Shown one piece after another: positions 14,349-41,661 of a stretch of 58,584 nucleotides of DNA (position 1 is its first letter; the number at the start of each line of letters is the position of its first letter). A program made the translations under genes and the position numbers. Location: contig JBBRFA010000005.1 in assembly GCA_038225185.1 (NCBI GenBank), positions 1-58,584 on the forward strand, read 5' to 3'. The notes below the pieces were generated by a model, which was not told where the DNA came from, searched no databases, and saw only the letters and a program-made list of their open reading frames with translations. The stretch comes from Chthoniobacterales bacterium (GTDB taxonomy: Bacteria; Verrucomicrobiota; Verrucomicrobiia; Chthoniobacterales; DASVRZ01).

Positions 14349-14542
14349 TTTCTTTAACGACATTGTCTATTTAACACATCCCGACACGTCGTCAAACGGG
14401 TATTTTGAATTAATTTGTCACAATCAGGTTACGGAAAGGCTGAAAAAGCGTTTTCGAGGTGTTTCTCCCGTTTTTTTCTCAGCCGAGTTCCCCGGCGCAC
14501 TCTTTACCTTTCGCGCCGCTTCGCTACATTCGGCCTCCTGCC

Positions 14543-17500
14543 ATGATGACCAGCACCCAAATCCGCCAGAGTTACCTCGATTTTTTCCGTGAAAAAGAGC
14601 ATACCATCGTTCCTTCGTCGTCGCTTCTACCCGATTCGCCCAATTTGCTTTTCACGAATGCGGGGATGAACCAATTTGTGCCCATTTTCCTTGGTCAAAC
14701 CCAGTGCCCCTACACGCCTGGACGCGCCGCCGACACGCAGAAATGCATTCGGGCCGGAGGTAAACACAACGACCTCGACGACGTGGGACTCGACACTTAT
14801 CACCACACTTTTTTCGAGATGCTCGGGAACTGGTCTTTCGGCGATTATTTCAAAAAAGAAGCCATCGCATGGGCCTGGGAACTCGTCGTGGAACGCTGGG
14901 GCTTCCCCGCCAACCGCGTCTATGCCACTATCTACAATCCCGATCAAACACTCGGCGACCCGGCGGAACGCGATGAGGAAGCCTACGGGTTTTGGGCCGA
15001 AAAATTCCGTGCGGCTGGACTCGACCCCTCCATTCACATCGTTAACGGCAACAAAAAAGATAATTTCTGGATGATGGGCGAGACCGGTCCGTGCGGTCCG
15101 TGCTCCGAATTGCACATCGACCTTACCCCCGAAGGCGACACCAAAGGCAGCCTCGTGAACACGGGCGACGCCCGCTGCATGGAGATTTGGAACCTCGTAT
15201 TCATCCAATTCAACGCCAACCCCGACGGCACGTTTTCGCCGTTGCCCGCCCAGCACGTCGATACCGGCATGGGTTTCGAGCGCGTTACCAGCATTATCCA
15301 AGGCACCAAAGGGTTCACCGATTTCGCCAACGCAAAAATCTCGAATTACGACACCGATATTTTCCGTCCGATCTTCGACGAAATTGAAAAGCTCAGCGGT
15401 TGCCAATACACCAGCACCTTGCCGGGAGACGGCTCTCAACTCTCAACTCCCAACCCTCAACTGCCTATCGACATAGCATTTCGTGTCATCGCCGACCACA
15501 TCCGGACGCTCAGTTTTGCCATCGCTGACGGCATCCAACCAGGCAACAACGACCGCAACTACGTCCTCCGCCGCATCCTCCGCCGCGCTGTCCGTTATGG
15601 GCGCACCCTGGGATTTTCGGAGCCGTTTTTCTACAAACTGGTCGGCCTCCTCGCCCGCGAAATGGGCGACATCTTTCCAGAAATACGCGCCAAACAAAAA
15701 CTCGTCGAAGAAACCCTCAAGCGCGAGGAGGAGGCGTTTAATAAGACGTTGGATAAGGGGATAGCCCTCTTCGAGGCGGAAGCTGCGAAGCTGCCGGGGA
15801 GCGCACTCGACTCGCGTGCAGATTTTGGCGACTCGCCAAAATCTCCCCTCCCCATCGCCCTAGGCGCCATTTATTCCAAGCGCAACCTCCCCCATTTCGA
15901 GCGTCCGTGGGGCAAATACGCGGTCACGTTTTCCACGTTTCAACGTTGCACGCTCACCGATGCCGAGCGCGACATCGTGCTTAATTGCGTTCTCTTCCCT
16001 TTTGAAAATGGGAAATATCATCTTTACGCAGCCAGCGTTATGCCCGACCACGTTGACCTGCTTTTCGAGCCGCAGGTAAAGGAGAACGATGTTACGGGTG
16101 CTCCGATTTTTTATTTGCTGACGGAGTTGCTGCAAAGTATCAAGTCCGTTTCGGCACATGAGATAAACAAATTACGGGGGACAACAGGACCCGTCTGGGA
16201 TCAGGAGTCGTTTGATCGTTTGATCCAGTCGGATGCGGATTTGCAGGAAAAGTTTATGTATATTTGTCGGAATCCATGGGATGCCGGTGTGGTGCGAGAT
16301 ACGGAGGATTATCGCTGGCTTTGGACGGGGGAAAAAAGTGCTGCTGCGCAGGTGGAGGAGGGCGCATTGGGCGAGTCGCCCAATGCGGCACGCGAGTCGC
16401 GTGCGCTCCCCGGAGCTTTCGCCTTTCGGCTCTATGATGAGCAGGGGTTCCCGCTGGATTTGACGGAATTGATGGCTCGCGAACGCGGGCTCACGGTGGA
16501 TACGGAAGGTTTTGAAAAGCTCATGGATGAGCAACGCTCACGCGCCCGTGCGGCACAAAAGAAAACGGTGATCGAGCTTTCCGAGATCGAGACAAAAGAG
16601 CCGACGCAATTTCTCGGCTACGAAGATTCGCAGGCAGGTGCGCAGGTGGCCGAGGTGCTGAATTTAAAGGGAAAGAATGTCGTTATCCTGACCAATTCCG
16701 TCTGTTACGCCGAGATGGGTGGTCAGGTCGGCGACACAGGGGAATTGACGGGCGCGGGTGGACTTTGGCGCATTGCGAATACGCAGAAATCGGGTAATAC
16801 CTGGCTTCATTTTCTCGAAGACGCCGATGCCCCGGCAGTGGGCGATCAGGTAACGATTCAGCTCGACATTCCGCGTCGCGCGGCGATTCAAAGACATCAT
16901 TCGGTGACGCATTTGCTGCATTGGGCGTTGCACGAAGTCGTCTCGCAGGAAGCGACGCAGAAAGGCTCTTTTGTCGGGCCAGACAAGCTGACGTTTGACT
17001 TCAATTCCGCCGCGCTCACCCCGCAACAAGTGCGCGACATCGAGCGGTTGGTGAATGAGAAAATCGTCCAAAACGACCCGATTTCCTGGTCCGAGGTGCC
17101 TTATGCCGAGGTGAAGGGCCGGCCCGACATCATGCAATTCTTCGGCGACAAATACGGCGACACGGTGCGCGTCGTCGATATTGGCGGCTACTCGAAGGAG
17201 CTTTGCGCGGGCACCCATGCGCGGGCGACAGGCGAGATCGGGCTATTCCGAATCAGTAGTGAAGCCGCCGTGGCCGCAGGTGTGCGCCGCATCGAAGCGG
17301 TGGCTGGTTTGCAGGCCTACGAAACCGCTTTTTCCGATAGCGAACGCCTGAAAACGTTTGCCGCAAAACTGAACAGTCCATTGGCCGAGATCGAAAATAA
17401 ACTCGACGCTCTGCTCATCCAGCAAAAGGAACTCGACCGAGCCCTCAAAGCCGCGCAGCAACGCGAAGCCGCCAGTCGCGCCCGCGCCCTCCTCGCCAAC

Positions 17501-17839
17501 TCCGAGACGATCAATGGCACTCCCACGATCATTGCGAATCTCGGTGCCACTGACGGCGATACCCTGCAAACCGTGGCCGACGCGTTAAAATCGCTGGGCT
17601 TTACCGGAGTTGTCCTGCTCGGCGGTGCCGTTGATGCATCCGTCGCGCTAGTCGCTTCCGTCTCATCCGACTATACCGCCCGATTCCAAGCCGGTAAAAT
17701 CATCCAAACCGTGGCACCTATGATCGGTGGCAAAGGTGGCGGCCGCCCCGACAACGCCCGGGGCGGCGGCAGGGAACCCGCAAAACTCGAGGAAGCTCTC
17801 GCCCAAGCCCGCCGGTTTTTGGCGGAGATCTCATCGTGA
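14543..17839 (+). CDS. alaS: Alanine--tRNA ligase with an in-frame RAYT-like domain insertion
   Basis: LLFTNAGMNQF, HHTFFEMLGNWSFGDYFK, DTGMGFER, RVIADHIR, editing motifs HSVTHLLH and ELCAGTH, GVRRIEA, GGKGGGRP; 1098 aa, longer than a typical ~880-aa AlaRS. Confidence 0.98.
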   Translation: MMTSTQIRQSYLDFFREKEHTIVPSSSLLPDSPNLLFTNAGMNQFVPIFLGQTQCPYTPGRAADTQKCIRAGGKHNDLDDVGLDTYHHTFFEMLGNWSFGDYFKKEAIAWAWELVVERWGFPANRVYATIYNPDQTLGDPAERDEEAYGFWAEKFRAAGLDPSIHIVNGNKKDNFWMMGETGPCGPCSELHIDLTPEGDTKGSLVNTGDARCMEIWNLVFIQFNANPDGTFSPLPAQHVDTGMGFERVTSIIQGTKGFTDFANAKISNYDTDIFRPIFDEIEKLSGCQYTSTLPGDGSQLSTPNPQLPIDIAFRVIADHIRTLSFAIADGIQPGNNDRNYVLRRILRRAVRYGRTLGFSEPFFYKLVGLLAREMGDIFPEIRAKQKLVEETLKREEEAFNKTLDKGIALFEAEAAKLPGSALDSRADFGDSPKSPLPIALGAIYSKRNLPHFERPWGKYAVTFSTFQRCTLTDAERDIVLNCVLFPFENGKYHLYAASVMPDHVDLLFEPQVKENDVTGAPIFYLLTELLQSIKSVSAHEINKLRGTTGPVWDQESFDRLIQSDADLQEKFMYICRNPWDAGVVRDTEDYRWLWTGEKSAAAQVEEGALGESPNAARESRALPGAFAFRLYDEQGFPLDLTELMARERGLTVDTEGFEKLMDEQRSRARAAQKKTVIELSEIETKEPTQFLGYEDSQAGAQVAEVLNLKGKNVVILTNSVCYAEMGGQVGDTGELTGAGGLWRIANTQKSGNTWLHFLEDADAPAVGDQVTIQLDIPRRAAIQRHHSVTHLLHWALHEVVSQEATQKGSFVGPDKLTFDFNSAALTPQQVRDIERLVNEKIVQNDPISWSEVPYAEVKGRPDIMQFFGDKYGDTVRVVDIGGYSKELCAGTHARATGEIGLFRISSEAAVAAGVRRIEAVAGLQAYETAFSDSERLKTFAAKLNSPLAEIENKLDALLIQQKELDRALKAAQQREAASRARALLANSETINGTPTIIANLGATDGDTLQTVADALKSLGFTGVVLLGGAVDASVALVASVSSDYTARFQAGKIIQTVAPMIGGKGGGRPDNARGGGREPAKLEEALAQARRFLAEISS
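15433..15462 (+). repeat. Short heptamer tandem repeat (ctctcaa-type, 4 units) inside alaS
   Basis: ctctcaa ctctcaa ctcccaa ccctcaa ct, translated as SQLSTPNPQL. Confidence 0.75.
15794..16413 (+). mobile_element. REP-flanked RAYT cassette inserted in frame in alaS
   Basis: 26-bp terminal inverted repeats (15794-15819 and 16388-16413, 1 mismatch), each with an adjacent inner hairpin; interior encodes KRNLPH..YAVTF, VMPDHVDLL, IKSVSAHEIN, VWDQESFDRLI, YICRNP, YRW. Confidence 0.9.
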
Positions 17840-37696: not shown

Positions 37697-40231
37697 ATGG
37701 AAAAAAACCTATTATTATCTAAATCGTTGACTCTTGCGGCTTTTGTCGCGGTTTCCACCATTGCCGTCCACGCTCAGGAAAGTGCTGAGCTGGATACTCT
37801 CCTCGTCACGGGCGCCGAAGTGCCCATTGCCGAGTCGATCATGCCCACCGTCCGGCCTTACAACGCCGCATTCGGGTTGGATCGCAACATTCAGGACGTT
37901 CCTCGTAACGTTACCATCATCTCCCGCGAACAATTGGACGCCATCAGCATTCAGGACGTGCGCGATTTCTCGAAACTCACCTCCTCCAGCTATACTAGCA
38001 GCAATTTCGGTGCTCCCTCCAATCCCAGTTTGCGCGGTCAGACTGCGGACGTCCTTGTCAACGGGATGAAAAGATCCCTCACCAACAATGGCAATGGCCT
38101 GCCGATTAATTTTAACTCGGTTGAGTCCGTCGATATTTTCAAAGGTCCGCCGACGGTCATCTACGGTGTTTCCAACGGTTTTACTGGCGGCTTCATCAAT
38201 TTGGTCACCAAACGTCCCTATTTCGGCAAGTTTCAAGGCTCGGCCAGCTTCACCCTGGGTGAATTTGAGCAACGTCGCTGGAACCTCGACATCGGCGGTC
38301 CCATCATCGCCGACCAGCTCGCCTATCGCGTTTCCTACTCCGGTGAGGAATCCGGCAGCTTCTACGAAAATGGCAACAAAAATACGCAGGCCATCTACGG
38401 CGCAATCACTTGGACGCCTTCCGCCAATTACACCTTGGAACTCAACGCCGAAATGTTCTTCGCCGATTACACCGAAAACTTCGGCGTCAACCGTGTCACC
38501 CAGGATTTGGTCGATAACAATCGTTACATCACCGGATTTGTCGGCGATCAGAATGGCGACGGTGTCATTGACAATCGCGATGTCAACAGCGGGTTCAACT
38601 CTGTCATTCTTGGCGAAACTATTACTTTGGATCGTAGCGTCCGCCTTCTTCGCCCTAGCGATGGCTCCTACGGACGCACTTTCAACATCCAAGCCATCCA
38701 GACTTTCAACATTGCCGACAATTTCACGATTGTTAACAACACGATGTATCAATGGGTCAAACGACAGACCCTGTCCTCTTATTATTACTCGGAAATCATC
38801 GACCCGGCCCAATCCATCGGGAACCGGACAGAGTTTCGGATGGATTTTGAGACTCCCTATGCATGGCAGCCAGCGTCCGTTGGGACCACCAAGCCGTCCT
38901 CCACCTCAGACAGTATGAGCAAGGACGGAAAGACGGTCATGGAAACCATTCCGCCTTACACGATCAAGACTTCGGTTAACTTCGGTCTCGATCTTCGCTA
39001 CCAAGAAGTCACGGCGTTCAATGACTTCAATAACGAGCCGGCCAATGCGTGGGACCTCAGTCGTCCACGTGAGTTGATTGACTACGTTAACTTTGACGGG
39101 TCAGTCCCAGTTCCCGGATATCCGGGGCGCGTGGCATCACCCGGTATTGATAACGTTAATGGTGGCGACACCAATCGCTCCCGGCAACTCTACATTTCGC
39201 CTTTTGCACAAGCGGACTTAAAGTTCTCCGAGCAAATCTCCCTTTTGATGGGTGTTCGTTTAGACATTCTTTATGTCGAGGCGATTGATCCCCTCTTTAG
39301 CCCCGATTACATCGAGCGCTTTCAAGGGCAGACCAACGCCGAGCGAGGCATTGACGGGGAGGATAGCACTGTGGTCGGTATTCCCAACTTCAATATTAGT
39401 CCGTCCTACAAACCATTTCCGTGGTTGACCACTTACTTCACTTACAACTACAGCCAATCCACCGCATCAGCCAATGGAGGGGGGTTTCCAACTCCAGCGA
39501 CAAGATTAGAAAATGGTATCTTGGTCGCACAGGATAGTATCAATGTTAAATCGCAATTGCGCCGCGAAAGTGAGTTGTTTGAGTTCGGCGTTAAAGCAAG
39601 CTTGTTCGAAGACACCGTTTTCATCGGAGCGGCAGCGTTTAAGCAGACTCGTGTTGTCCCAACCATCGGAGCAGGTTCCAACGCGCTCGATGTGTATGGA
39701 TTTGAGATCGAGGCAAACTATCAGCCGAACAAAAACTTCTATGCGACTGTTGGTTACACCTACCTGGATGCACAGCTTAAAAATCAGTCGCCCTTCTCAG
39801 TTCAAACCTATGCAATCGATGCGCCAAATGCTCCCTCGTTTTTCCCAGGGAGCGTCGTGACTGACACCTTCGGCGGGTTGGGAACTGCCTACCCGGTTGC
39901 AAATTACGAACAGCCTGCCTTGCCTGACCACCTTTTCAATGGCTTGGTTAGCTATAGCATCGACACCCGCATCGGTAAGTTTGGAGTTATACTCGGGAGC
40001 ACTGTCACTGGTCCTTTCAACGTGGATTTTCCCGGAACTGTCGTAGTCCCCTGGCAGTATAGTGTGGATGCCACTTTGTTCTACAAACACAAGAACTTCG
40101 AGGCTCGCCTTGCCTGCCTCAATGCCACGGACGAGCAAAACTGGTCTCCATCCAACCCCGTTTACGCACTGGATGGGATCGTTGCCGACCTTCCCCGTCG
40201 TTTCGAGGGCACCATCACCATCAAGTTCTAA
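37697..40231 (+). CDS. TonB-dependent receptor
   Basis: Signal peptide, TonB-box-like DTLLVTG, plug motifs (PRNVTII, VESVDIFKGP, GGFINLVTKRP), C-terminal Phe. Confidence 0.93.
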   Translation: MEKNLLLSKSLTLAAFVAVSTIAVHAQESAELDTLLVTGAEVPIAESIMPTVRPYNAAFGLDRNIQDVPRNVTIISREQLDAISIQDVRDFSKLTSSSYTSSNFGAPSNPSLRGQTADVLVNGMKRSLTNNGNGLPINFNSVESVDIFKGPPTVIYGVSNGFTGGFINLVTKRPYFGKFQGSASFTLGEFEQRRWNLDIGGPIIADQLAYRVSYSGEESGSFYENGNKNTQAIYGAITWTPSANYTLELNAEMFFADYTENFGVNRVTQDLVDNNRYITGFVGDQNGDGVIDNRDVNSGFNSVILGETITLDRSVRLLRPSDGSYGRTFNIQAIQTFNIADNFTIVNNTMYQWVKRQTLSSYYYSEIIDPAQSIGNRTEFRMDFETPYAWQPASVGTTKPSSTSDSMSKDGKTVMETIPPYTIKTSVNFGLDLRYQEVTAFNDFNNEPANAWDLSRPRELIDYVNFDGSVPVPGYPGRVASPGIDNVNGGDTNRSRQLYISPFAQADLKFSEQISLLMGVRLDILYVEAIDPLFSPDYIERFQGQTNAERGIDGEDSTVVGIPNFNISPSYKPFPWLTTYFTYNYSQSTASANGGGFPTPATRLENGILVAQDSINVKSQLRRESELFEFGVKASLFEDTVFIGAAAFKQTRVVPTIGAGSNALDVYGFEIEANYQPNKNFYATVGYTYLDAQLKNQSPFSVQTYAIDAPNAPSFFPGSVVTDTFGGLGTAYPVANYEQPALPDHLFNGLVSYSIDTRIGKFGVILGSTVTGPFNVDFPGTVVVPWQYSVDATLFYKHKNFEARLACLNATDEQNWSPSNPVYALDGIVADLPRRFEGTITIKF

Positions 40232-40247
40232 CATTTAACACTCACCC

Positions 40248-40290
40248 ACGATTGGTTGGGCAGGGAAACAGGGATTTCCCAACCAATCGT
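40248..40290. other. Long hairpin right after the receptor stop codon
   Basis: acgattggttggg ... cccaaccaatcgt, 13-bp perfect stem. Confidence 0.7.
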
Positions 40291-40298
40291 AAGTTTTC

Positions 40299-40340
40299 GA
40301 TGGCCCCGCCCTGTCCAGGTGCGGGGCCATTTTCTTTTCT
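40299..40340 (+). terminator. Rho-independent terminator
   Basis: atggccccgc-loop-gcggggccat followed by tttctttt. Confidence 0.8.
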
Positions 40341-40404
40341 GCAAATATGACCGCACATTTCATTTCTAACATCAGATTCTACCAGCGCGTATCCAGCCGC
40401 CTAC

Positions 40405-41661
40405 ATGCTGCGCAAAAAGGTCGTCCACGAAATCGTTATGAAAATGCCATCCCAGAGTAATTTAACCGCAACCCCCGACGCCGGGGAGCGCACGCGACTC
40501 GCGTGCAGTTTTTGGCGAGTCGCCAAAAACGCATTATCCATCGCGAAGCGCACTTTTTGGAGAAGCGCGACGATCGCCAGTTGCGGGAAAATTTTTAATG
40601 AATCGCCCAAACCCGCACCCAAGTCGCGGCCGCTACCCGGAGCTTTCGCGCTCGTTGCATTATTAGGGATCCCGTCAGTCCACGCCGCCGAAATCATCCG
40701 TCCCAAAGTCGTGGTCATTTCCACGTTCGAGATCGGACAAGACACCGGCGATGTCCCCGGCGAATTTCAACTCTGGGCCGAGCGCGAAAAATTTGCCAAC
40801 CCCATCACAGTGCCCGGCCTCGATCATCCCGTGCTCTCCAACGATCAGGGAGTCTTCGGCGTGGTCAGTGGCACCACCGTGCGGTCCGCCGTCCAAATCA
40901 CCTATCTCATCAACGACCCGCGCTTTGATTTTTCCAAAACTTATTTTCTCATCGCTGGCATCGCTGGCGTGGATCCCGAAAATGCCAGCGTGGGCAGCGC
41001 CGCCTGGGCGCGCTGGATCGTCGATGGCGATATCGCTTACGAAATTGATTCGCGCGAAACCAAGCCCGACTGGCCTTATGGCATCGTCCCCATCGGCGGA
41101 AAAATTCCCAATCAAATTCCGAAAGACGCCCCCTGGGCTCCCAAACCCATGGCCTGGAAACTCAATCCCGCACTCGTCAATTGGGCCTACCAACTCACCA
41201 AAGACATCGTTATTCCAGAGACCGACGATGCCAGGGCGCACCGCGCCAAATTTACCGCCTGGAAACCCGCCCAGGAACCGCCAAAAATTCTCCTCGGCGA
41301 CATTGTCGGCTCCTGCCGTTACTGGCACGGCACCGTCCTCACGAAATGGGCCAACGATTGGACAAAACTTTACACCGGCGGGGAGGGCGATTTCGTCATG
41401 TCCAACATGGAGGATCAAGGCATCGCCGCCGCCCTCGAACGAAGTTCCGCCTTGGGCAAAGTCGATTTTCAACGGGTGCTTTTCCTGCGCACCGGCAGCA
41501 ATTACTGCACTCCGCATCCCGCCCAGACCGCCATGGAAAGCATGACGGAGGAATACAGCGGCATGTTACCCTCGCTCGAATCCGCCTATCTCGCAGGCAG
41601 CAAAGTGGTCCACACCCTCATCGCCGACTGGAAAACTTACGAAACCACCACCCCTAAATAA
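40405..41661 (+). CDS. Purine nucleoside permease (NUP family), exported, with a REP-derived N-terminal extension
   Basis: PKVVVISTFEIGQDTGDVPGEFQLW, DPRFDFSKTYFLIAGIAGVDP, GSAAWA, MEDQG, LRTGSNY; start may be 40405, 40438 or 40444. Confidence 0.85.
   Translation: MLRKKVVHEIVMKMPSQSNLTATPDAGERTRLACSFWRVAKNALSIAKRTFWRSATIASCGKIFNESPKPAPKSRPLPGAFALVALLGIPSVHAAEIIRPKVVVISTFEIGQDTGDVPGEFQLWAEREKFANPITVPGLDHPVLSNDQGVFGVVSGTTVRSAVQITYLINDPRFDFSKTYFLIAGIAGVDPENASVGSAAWARWIVDGDIAYEIDSRETKPDWPYGIVPIGGKIPNQIPKDAPWAPKPMAWKLNPALVNWAYQLTKDIVIPETDDARAHRAKFTAWKPAQEPPKILLGDIVGSCRYWHGTVLTKWANDWTKLYTGGEGDFVMSNMEDQGIAAALERSSALGKVDFQRVLFLRTGSNYCTPHPAQTAMESMTEEYSGMLPSLESAYLAGSKVVHTLIADWKTYETTTPK
40481..40649. 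repeat. REPIN-like inverted pair of the alaS-type REP
   Basis: 40481-40506 is the exact reverse complement of alaS right repeat 16388-16413; 40615-40640 matches it 21/26 and is followed by the same agctttcgc. Confidence 0.9.

What the first reader, a model, noticed from the sequence alone, without database searches (positions are those of the whole stretch)
40481..40649. The same REP pair, without transposase, is translated in the N-terminus of the nucleoside permease
Seen: ccggggagcgcacgcgactcgcgtgc plus hairpin gtttttggcgagtcgccaaaaac (40481-40530) and a degenerate inverted copy (40615-40640) form a 160-bp REPIN-like unit. Its right end gives LPGAFA in the same frame as in alaS, including shared agctttcgc. 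All in-frame ATGs lie upstream of the element and the hydrophobic signal core follows it directly. Inference: this repeat family is dispersed and repeatedly enters coding sequences in frame, like Rickettsia palindromic elements, here extending a signal peptide.
Basis: partly seen in the sequence, partly recalled or inferred. Interest (0 to 1): 0.75.

Follow-up and report, generated by a model that had tools for sequence, protein, structure and literature searches.

The report
Mobile repeat pair inside signal peptide
A 160-base pair of selfish hairpin repeats (a REPIN) sits in frame in the export-signal part of a periplasmic nucleoside-binding gene of an uncultured Verrucomicrobium, probably read through and cut off with the signal; it is a clear new example of a phenomenon already described.

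Summary
40481-40530 is a near-consensus two-hairpin REP unit, and 40592-40640 is its degenerate inverted partner. The family is dispersed: 45 profile hits in this genome, and it is present in 4 of 5 same-genus genomes.

Comparison with relatives shows that the ancestral start of this NUP gene is ATG 40438 (MKM...). The REPIN, about 56 codons, was inserted in frame inside the signal-peptide coding region, about 15 codons after that start. No ATG, GTG or TTG lies between the element and the hydrophobic core. Assemblies from four studies show no indel there. A second strain keeps the 418-aa frame, and a second lineage (P0002) carries a REP-derived extension at the same place. The mature domain is under purifying selection (pN/pS 0.087).

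The REPIN is therefore most likely translated as a long basic n-region and removed with the signal peptide (about 65%). Translation itself is not shown.

The same family is in frame in alaS, metG and thiC, but 34 of 45 copies are intergenic. REP units are almost free of stop codons, so an open frame is weak evidence on its own.

Intragenic REPs, including ones in Verrucomicrobia, in tRNA-synthetase genes and at N-termini, are in print (PMC3733652). This is a new member of a known kind.

The parts
40308..40340 (+). Terminator-like hairpin plus T-run after the upstream TonB-dependent receptor gene (stop at 40231). It is conserved in the same-genus genome G004.
40347..40460 (+). 38-codon mini-ORF in another frame. 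It begins MTAH.. at the place where G004's NUP begins MTHKK.., and ends ..RYENAIPE*, like the C-terminal ends of NUP proteins. Inferred to be the relic of a largely deleted upstream NUP paralog.
   Evidence: read; inference
40394..40433 (+). Relic of the 3' coding end of an upstream NUP gene (..AAYMLRKKVVHEI, against ..AAHRVGSKVVHEI in L050). It includes ATG 40405, which is therefore unlikely to be the true start.
   Evidence: local alignment score 31; 1000 shuffles gave mean 15.2, sd 2.1, max 25, with 0 of 1000 reaching 31; 5 nonsynonymous and 0 synonymous differences in codons 1-11 between strains.
40438..40440 (+). Most likely start codon (MKM..). It is homologous to the start of REPIN-free relatives: L050 begins MKMRFRNKLF.. 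and P0006 begins MKMKFRTNSL..
   Evidence: inference from alignment by eye over the first ~37 nt
40481..40530 (+). Left REP unit, near consensus. It has a G(G/T)AG-type tag, hairpin 1 at 40490-40506 and hairpin 2 at 40508-40530.
   Evidence: E 1.2e-15
40531..40591 (+). Spacer between the two arms of the REPIN. It holds a weaker direct echo of hairpin 2 at 40550-40577.
   Evidence: D1
40592..40649 (-). Right REP unit, inverted and degenerate (hairpin 2 has decayed), together with the element's flank GCGAAAGCT. On the + strand it encodes ..SPKPAPKSRPLPGAFA.
   Evidence: E 2.6e-11
40651..40686 (+). Ancestral part of the signal peptide h- and c-regions (LVALLGIPSVHA). Cleavage is predicted after VHA, between 40686 and 40687.
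   Evidence: the only 11-residue windows with mean Kyte-Doolittle hydropathy above 1.5 begin at residues 65-73 of the pre-sequence; homologs end ..HAA/ELIRPK. No signal-peptide predictor was run.
40687..41661 (+). Mature NUP-family protein. PF06516 covers ORF residues 100-416.
   Evidence: E 1.7e-104; pN/pS 0.087 between strains

Best explanation
A REPIN (an inverted pair of REP units from a genus-wide, GTAG-type REP family that flanks a RAYT-like gene 25 kb away in alaS) transposed into the signal-peptide coding region of a periplasmic NUP-family gene. It landed about 15 codons after the ancestral ATG (40438). Its length is a multiple of three (about 168 nt, 56 codons) and its reading frame has no stop.

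Translation still starts at the old ATG and runs through the repeat. This gives a long, basic, non-hydrophobic n-region of about 68 residues. Translation then reaches a hydrophobic core whose first residues (..GAFA) come from the element's end and whose remainder (LVALLGIPSVHA) is ancestral. Signal peptidase then removes the whole pre-sequence, so the mature protein is unchanged and the insertion is nearly neutral.

Shown: the repeat, its family, its position relative to the ancestral start, the intact frame in several strains, and purifying selection on the mature part.

Inferred: the start codon used, read-through, export and cleavage.
For: 1. The repeat and its family are real. Hairpin 1 keeps pairing through double changes: GCACGCGA..TCGCGTGC becomes GCACCCGA..TCGGGTGC in contigs C34 and C100.

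2. The ancestral start lies upstream of the element. Locus L050 carries tandem NUP genes in which the end of the first (..GSKVVHEIIANWSRYENEIPQ*) overlaps the start of the second (MKMRFRNKLF.., an ordinary 27-aa signal peptide). The window has the same layout: a relic of the 3' end, then ATGAAAATG (0 of 1000 shuffles reach the relic alignment score). P0006, at 79% identity, starts MKMKFRTNSLL...

3. No ATG, GTG or TTG lies in frame between 40446 and the h-region. The next is GTG at codon 102, inside the Pfam domain.

4. The frame is not an assembly error. Contigs from runs of four studies cover the REPIN or part of it with 0 gaps. One of them (X1) may be the source of the window. A second strain (L049) keeps a 418-aa ORF with no indel over 1430 nt.

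5. A second lineage (P0002; 407 aa, 80% identity over the whole alignment) has an 83-aa pre-sequence. Its best tblastn match in this genome is a REP locus (contig C57, 13958-14200, E 0.042), and its right end ..STRGTRALP is in the same phase as here.

6. The gene is alive. For the mature part, pN/pS is 0.087 (4.5 nonsynonymous, 15.5 synonymous differences). For codons 12-78 it is 0.62 (8 nonsynonymous, 4 synonymous).

7. The coded extension is compatible with an n-region. The pre-sequence has 12 K+R against 3 D+E, and no hydrophobic window before the h-region.

8. The family is demonstrably tolerated when translated. It lies in frame in the single-copy genes metG, thiC and alaS, and these inserts are shared with other species.
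Against: No RNA, ribosome or protein evidence exists for this gene.

An 83-aa Sec pre-sequence is far outside the family's range: 87 of 89 scorable homologs have 2-44 residues before the mature motif.

An open frame is weak evidence here. 2 of the 3 forward frames of this REPIN are open, 35 of 45 REP hits have at least 5 of 6 frames open, and stop triplets number 44 against 138 +/- 10 in shuffles.

The extension evolves almost neutrally, as untranslated DNA would.

Hairpin 1 followed by a T-run scores as a terminator-like site (40490-40506), and the RNA can fold to -71 kcal/mol. Either could reduce expression.

No Shine-Dalgarno-like motif is evident before 40438 (read).

The same-genus comparator G004 may carry the other paralog, so it is not a clean empty site. 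The DNA of P0002 could not be obtained, so an internal TTG or GTG start there cannot be excluded.
Confidence: 0.65

Rival explanations
1. The REPIN lies in the 5' untranslated leader. Translation starts downstream of it, either at a non-canonical codon just before the h-region (for example ATT 40591) or at GTG 40708, which would give a protein without a signal peptide. The long ORF would then be an accident of a stop-poor repeat.
For: REP units are nearly stop-free, so the open frame costs nothing. The extension evolves nearly neutrally (pN/pS 0.62). Di Nocera et al. [quoted passage not shown]
Against: There is no ATG, GTG or TTG between 40446 and 40708. ATT 40591 is GTT in the other strain. 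A start at 40708 would delete the signal peptide that all full-length homologs seen carry, and would clip the Pfam domain, which begins at residue 100. The ancestral ATG is upstream and still in frame.
Confidence: 0.17
2. The insertion has silenced the gene, or nearly so. The NUP ORF is an unexpressed or poorly expressed recent pseudogene, because the REP hairpin with its T-run terminates transcription or blocks translation.
For: A terminator-like site lies at 40490-40506 followed by AGTTTTTGG. The predicted RNA structure is stable, at -71.1 kcal/mol; 5 of 200 shuffles fold at least as well. An upstream paralog at this locus has already decayed.
Against: The mature region is under purifying selection between strains: pN/pS 0.087, with no indel or stop in 972 nt. 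The REPIN-bearing allele is the only one seen in assemblies from four studies, and a diverged lineage (P0002) keeps both the extension and an intact domain.
Confidence: 0.08
3. The true start is the off-frame ATG 40598 inside the right arm, and the assembly carries a 1-base error, or the ribosome shifts frame.
For: ATG 40598 is preceded by GGGAAAA about 9 nt upstream. With a +1 shift it would give a normal ~30-aa signal peptide (read).
Against: No indel is seen in contigs from four studies or in L049. In the other strain the ATG itself is lost: AATGAA becomes ACCAAG.
Confidence: 0.02

Closest known systems
GTAG-tagged REPs / REPINs with RAYT transposases (Di Nocera et al. 2013, PMC3733652, passages read; Bertels & Rainey 2011, recalled)
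   Same: A short GC-rich palindrome behind a G(T/G)AG tag. Dozens of copies, mostly intergenic. Many copies in inverted pairs 80-165 nt apart. Two inverted copies flank a RAYT-like gene. The hairpin is kept by compensatory changes. Some copies lie inside ORFs, including tRNA-synthetase genes and ORF N-termini; the paper found the most intragenic GTAG REPs in the verrucomicrobium Opitutus terrae.
   Different: The unit has two hairpins, the second AT-flanked. The tag is mostly GGAG in this genome. This copy sits inside a Sec signal peptide, with the ancestral start codon retained upstream; I did not find that placement described. The family's RAYT-like gene is itself carried in frame inside host genes.
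Rickettsia palindromic elements (RPE; Ogata et al. 2000, as cited in PMC3733652 and PMC3184786, passages read)
   Same: Palindromic repeats inserted in frame into genes that still encode functional proteins. Some RPE-1 copies decorate N-termini and are reported as expressed.
   Different: No sequence relation was tested or is expected. RPEs have no known associated transposase, whereas here a RAYT-like gene is flanked by the repeats. The host is a free-living environmental bacterium, not an obligate intracellular one.
Extended signal peptides of Gram-negative secreted proteins (e.g. the ESPR of autotransporters; recalled, not tested)
   Same: A long N-terminal extension ahead of an otherwise ordinary n-h-c signal peptide, removed on export.
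   Different: Those extensions are conserved sequences with a proposed function. This one is a recent, fast-evolving mobile-element insertion.

Membership tests
REP / REPIN (GTAG-type) | Short imperfect palindrome repeated many times in one genome | tested here: met
   19 copies at up to 5 mismatches against 0 for the reversed pattern. 45 nhmmer hits at E<1e-3; the profile was built from those 19, so they match by construction.
REP / REPIN (GTAG-type) | GTAG (or a degenerate G-Y/T-R-G) tag next to the stem | tested here: inconclusive
   Most copies here read GGAG. The right arm here, contig C31:24961 and the G017 variant read GTAG. The paper allows degenerate tags, e.g. GTGG in O. terrae.
REP / REPIN (GTAG-type) | Inverted doublets at short, similar spacing | tested here: met
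   Pairs in this window (134 nt start to start), on contig C31 (83 nt) and on C34 (112 nt), plus many pairs in G001 and G005 80-165 nt apart.
REP / REPIN (GTAG-type) | A RAYT (HUH Y1 transposase) flanked by the repeats in the same genome | tested here: inconclusive
   Inverted REPs at 15794 and 16413 flank a 170-aa insert in alaS. Its Y1_Tnp score is only 14.9 bits (E 0.05), there is no Pfam hit at E<=0.01 and no PDB hit. Relatives' copies score 16.5-17.2 bits, below the cut-off of 23. The HUH-like and YIxxNP-like motifs were seen by eye; these motifs are recalled, not from any call.
REP / REPIN (GTAG-type) | Predominantly extragenic location | tested here: met
   34 intergenic, 4 partial overlaps at gene ends and 7 inside genes, out of 45 hits, in a genome called 86% coding by my crude codon-usage gene caller.
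RPE-like in-frame insertion (works like, not a member) | The insert is in frame and stop-free, the host gene is intact on both sides, and relatives lack the insert | tested here: met
   metG: absent in G001, G003 and G004, present in G005 (Pfam). thiC. alaS. NUP: P0006 and L050 lack it.
RPE-like in-frame insertion (works like, not a member) | The inserted peptide is present in the expressed protein | not testable with these tools
   No RNA holder was listed and there are no proteomics data.
NUP family (PF06516) | Match to the Pfam model above its gathering score | tested here: met
   349.8 bits against a cut-off of 27, over residues 100-416.
Sec signal peptide | A basic n-region, a hydrophobic h-region of 10-15 residues, and an AxA-type cleavage site | tested here: inconclusive
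   The h-region, and VHA followed by AE, were seen by hydropathy and by alignment with homologs. The n-region is about 68 residues, far longer than usual. No dedicated predictor was available.

The most novel reading that the evidence does not exclude
In this genus the REP/RAYT system may be specialised for living inside reading frames.

- The REP unit is almost free of stop triplets in all six frames.
- Its peptides recur in one preferred hydrophilic phase (PGSA.DSRA.FGDSP) in alaS, thiC, metG and recG.
- The RAYT-like gene has no gene of its own. It is carried in frame as an internal domain of essential proteins: AlaRS here, and RecG and ThrRS in congeners.

That would be a non-splicing, intein-like niche that guarantees expression of the transposase and blocks its loss. 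The NUP signal-peptide copy would then be one more permissive landing site of such a system.
Probability: 0.3. Interest if true: 0.75.

Novelty: new member of a known kind. Interest (0 to 1): 0.4.

Why it matters
It gives a well-documented case for a question usually left open for repeats at ORF N-termini: are they coding or leader? Here the ancestral start codon can be located upstream of the element by comparison with REPIN-free relatives, and no alternative canonical start exists. The case for read-through is therefore unusually good.

It also suggests a simple reason why signal peptides may be safe landing sites for mobile repeats: whatever is added ahead of the hydrophobic core is cleaved off. 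In practice it warns annotators that the 418-aa call mixes a relic of a paralog, a mobile element and a real gene.

The phenomenon itself, REPs in frame in genes, is already in print.

Tried and rejected
1. Idea: the region 40340-40480 is a duplicate of the gene's own 5' end. Local alignments to G004's gene start and to 40641-40800 were at chance level (scores 16 and 15; 130 and 155 of 300 shuffles reached them). Rejected. The true relation is to the 3' end of a NUP gene. The same relic aligned against this gene's own 3' end was not significant (score 17; 239 of 1000 shuffles reached it).

2. Frameshift or ATG 40598. Rejected.

3. Rfam over 40200-40800 gave only a chance-level ClpQY_promoter hit (15.7 bits against a gathering score of 42).

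4. The sigma-70 consensus scan found 0 promoter-like sites in 40150-40800. This consensus may not apply to this phylum.

5. No RNA holder was listed among the 17 runs, so expression could not be examined.

6. DNA of the P0002 lineage. The one metagenome scan returned another strain of this species (L049) and REPIN-free relatives, not P0002's contig.

7. phmmer of the alaS insert against PDB sequences gave only chance hits (E 0.32 and 0.97).

8. Literature. A search for 'Rickettsia palindromic element' with 'signal peptide' found 0 papers. A search for REP, signal peptide, inserted and in-frame found 3 unrelated papers. Supplementary file 3 of PMC3733652, which lists intragenic REPs, was not opened and may hold signal-peptide cases.

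9. No REPIN-less allele (joint) was seen in the four runs laid. Contigs cannot prove that such an allele is absent.

Full report
**What is there**

The window is contig C5 of a 3.15-Mb, 156-contig genome.

The sequence at 40481-40530 has two parts. The first is the 26-mer CCGGGGAGCGCACGCGACTCGCGTGC, which contains an 8+8 palindrome. The second is a perfect 11+11 hairpin at 40508-40530. The 26-mer recurs exactly at 16388-16413 (-) and with one mismatch at 15794-15819 (+). None of 100 shuffles gave a match. An inverted, degenerate partner lies at 40592-40640: the arms are 49 nt long, 76% complementary and 62 nt apart.

Genome-wide there are 19 copies at up to 5 mismatches and 0 for the reversed pattern. 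Copies on contigs C34 and C100 keep the first hairpin through paired changes (G-C to C-G). A profile built from those 19 copies finds 45 hits at E<1e-3.

A 22-nt degenerate pattern is found in 8 of 41 genomes searched. The counts are: own genome 15, same-genus G001 79, G002 19, G004 2, G005 43, G003 none, and three genomes outside the genus with 1-5. All reversed-pattern controls gave 0. Many copies are inverted pairs 80-165 nt apart.

This is a REP/REPIN family. The tag before the stem is GGAG in most copies here, and GTAG in the right arm and in some relatives.

**The gene**

The ORF 40405-41661 (418 aa) matches Pfam NUP (PF06516) over residues 100-416 (E 1.7e-104). Just before that domain lies ..PLPGAFALVALLGIPSVHA/AEIIRPK. 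This is an h-region and c-region like those of homologs, which read for example ..LLLVALGLPSLHAAGLIRPK.

I examined the 120 best homologs listed. Of these, 100 are single-domain proteins of 450 aa or less. My motif regex matched 89 of them. In 87 of those 89, 2-44 residues precede the mature motif. The two exceptions are P0001, which is this protein with one substitution (98 residues), and P0002 (87 residues). The 11 without a regex match look ordinary by eye, and one is a fragment.

**Where the gene used to start**

The same-genus genome G004 keeps the synteny of TonB-dependent receptor, NUP and permease. Its NUP is 348 aa and starts MTHKKYSIFQ.., 118 nt after the receptor gene, with no REPIN.

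More telling is metagenome locus L050 (76% identity to P0002; its gene product, P0003, is 81% identical to the window protein). It holds two NUP genes in tandem. The end of the first (..GSKVVHEIIANWSRYENEIPQ*) overlaps the start of the second, whose ATGAAAATG opens an ordinary signal peptide MKMRFRNKLFPIAAGLAFCVMARATYA.

The window has the same arrangement in decayed form. 40394-40433 aligns to the 3' coding end of L050's first gene with score 31; 1000 shuffles gave mean 15.2 and max 25. A deletion of about 16 nt follows, and then comes TATGAAAATG at 40437-40446. P0006 (79% identity) starts MKMKFRTNSLL...

So ATG 40438 is the ancestral start of this gene. ATG 40405 lies inside the relic of a lost upstream paralog. 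Between two strains, codons 1-11 carry 5 nonsynonymous and 0 synonymous differences. The mini-ORF 40347-40460 is probably what is left of that paralog; this last point is inference.

**Where the element went in**

Before the REPIN the ORF reads MKMPSQSNLTATPDA (15 aa). After it the ORF reads LVALLGIPSVHA (12 aa). Together that is 27 aa, the length of the signal peptides of L050 and P0006.

The inserted part (GERTRL...SRPLPGAFA) is about 56 codons. It spans roughly 40482-40649, that is, the 160-nt REPIN plus the 9-nt flank AGCTTTCGC. That flank is part of the element: GCGAA..AGCT lies beside other copies. This explains why alaS and NUP share LPGAFA.

The insertion therefore split the signal peptide, and the element's end now supplies the first residues of the hydrophobic core.

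**Is it read through?**

Evidence for read-through:
- There is no ATG, GTG or TTG in frame between 40446 and GTG 40708, and 40708 is inside the mature domain.
- The frame is not an artefact. Contigs from runs of four studies lie on the region without gaps. X1, which may be the window's source, covers it whole. X2 has a 1635-nt contig with 4 substitutions. X4 has two contigs. X7 has a 312-nt contig with 11 substitutions. No contig skips the element.
- Locus L049, another strain, has the same 418-aa ORF and no indel over 1430 nt.
- In that strain the off-frame ATG 40598 is lost, which removes the frameshift idea.
- P0002 (407 aa) is a more distant lineage with an 83-aa pre-sequence. Its best tblastn match in this genome is a REP locus (E 0.042), and its right end is in the same phase as here.
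- The mature part is under purifying selection (pN/pS 0.087), whereas the extension is nearly unconstrained (pN/pS 0.62, on small counts).
- The extension is basic (12 K+R against 3 D+E) and has no hydrophobic stretch before the h-region. That fits a cytoplasmic n-region.

Evidence against, or cautions:
- REP units are nearly stop-free. 35 of 45 hits have at least 5 of 6 frames open. Stop triplets number 44, against 138 +/- 10 in shuffles and 128 +/- 12 in random genomic pieces. The copies are related, so this is in effect one consensus.
- 2 of the 3 forward frames of this REPIN are open.
- An 83-aa pre-sequence is extreme for this family.
- Hairpin 1 plus its T-run looks like a terminator.
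- The RNA folds to -71.1 kcal/mol, z -2.2.
- No RNA run was listed.

I put read-through with cleavage at about 65%, a downstream or non-canonical start at about 17%, and silencing at about 8%.

**Does the family enter genes?**

I used a crude codon-usage gene caller (2615 genes, 86% coding). By its calls, 34 of the 45 hits are intergenic, 4 overlap gene ends, and 7 lie inside 4 genes: alaS (2), NUP (2), metG (2) and thiC (1).
- The metG insert (residues 273-305) is shared with G005, which matches at 86% identity straight through it. It is absent in G001, G003 and G004 (Pfam).
- The thiC insert (..SARDSHAAK..) is shared with G005 (..GSARDSRAVEGDSPSTS..) and absent in G002, G003 and G004.
- In alaS the two inverted REPs flank a RAYT-like domain, all in frame. 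G004 and G005 share this, while G002 and G003 lack it.

These are single-copy housekeeping genes, so the repeat is certainly translated there.

**Comparison with what is known**

Di Nocera et al. 2013 (PMC3733652; passages read) describe GTAG- and CGTC-tagged REPs inside ORFs. [quoted passage not shown] Many of their cases lie at ORF N-termini, which they mostly judged non-coding. They note that RPE-1-decorated N-termini in Rickettsia are expressed. Delihas 2011 (PMC3184786; passages read) reviews repeats fused to the 5' and 3' ends of ORFs. Earlier reports of this scan also describe REP pairs in frame in argS, leuS and proS of other genomes.

The kind is therefore known. I did not find a REPIN placed inside a Sec signal peptide with the ancestral start demonstrably upstream. 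The paper's supplementary list of intragenic REPs was not opened.

**Verdict**

This is a new member of a known kind, of moderate interest (0.4).

The more unusual thing lies next door. The family's RAYT-like gene is itself carried in frame inside alaS here, and inside recG and thrS in congeners.

Noticed in passing
window 15794-16413 (inside alaS, 14459-17839): Two inverted REPs flank a ~170-aa RAYT-like domain, all in frame inside alanyl-tRNA synthetase, whose ORF is 1126 aa. G004 and G005 share this; G002 and G003 lack it. The HUH-like motif reads H-V-D here and H-V-H in relatives' copies. This is the only copy of this domain in the genome. Pfam Y1_Tnp scores only 14.9 bits.
   Followed up: partly
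L129 1024-3855 (-), L130 641-3538 (+), L132 1012-4059 (-), L131 718-3183 (-): In congeners the same RAYT-like cassette (47-52% identical to the alaS insert, with REP-coded peptides beside it) sits in frame inside recG (G002, G004, G005) and inside a threonyl-tRNA-synthetase-type gene (G004). The Pfam domains of the host proteins lie on both sides of it. A transposase carried as an internal domain of essential proteins deserves its own study.
   Followed up: partly
window 40347-40460: Relic of a second, upstream NUP gene: a start-like MTAH.., an internal deletion, and a C-terminal ..KVVHEI / ..RYENAIPE*. Tandem NUP genes exist in L050, and fused double-NUP proteins of 640-711 aa are common among the homologs.
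   Followed up: partly
G000 contig C31:24868-24996 (metG) and contig C21:20183-20241 (thiC): A REP pair lies in frame in methionyl-tRNA synthetase, and a single REP remnant lies in frame in ThiC. Both are shared with species G005. The REP is read in the same hydrophilic phase (..GSA.D.RA...SP..) as in the left arm in alaS.
   Followed up: yes
window 40490-40515: REP hairpin 1 followed by AGTTTTTGG scores as an intrinsic-terminator-like site on the coding strand. If it is active, it could make NUP expression depend on translation through the repeat.
   Followed up: no
L018 1480-1944 and 2040-2160 (G000 contig C41): An IS200-type TnpA (Y1_Tnp, 81.5 bits) lies about 100 nt from a REP copy whose first hairpin is interrupted by an insertion of about 40 nt.
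   Followed up: no
G000 contig C34:1624-1999: An array of four REP units with a 198-nt period, including two near-identical direct copies. It looks like a local tandem duplication of a REPIN.
   Followed up: no
G005 contig C6:18138-21842 and contig C4:288891-290771: The open frames of alaS (1305 aa) and metG (677 aa) in G005 are even longer than here, with extra unmatched stretches between the matched blocks. This suggests further in-frame insertions in that species.
   Followed up: no
all 45 REP hits of G000: Stop triplets on both strands number 44, against 138 +/- 10 in shuffles. 231 of 270 frames are open, against 160 +/- 7 in shuffles. The copies are related, so this amounts to about one consensus (chance roughly 0.05).
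   Followed up: partly
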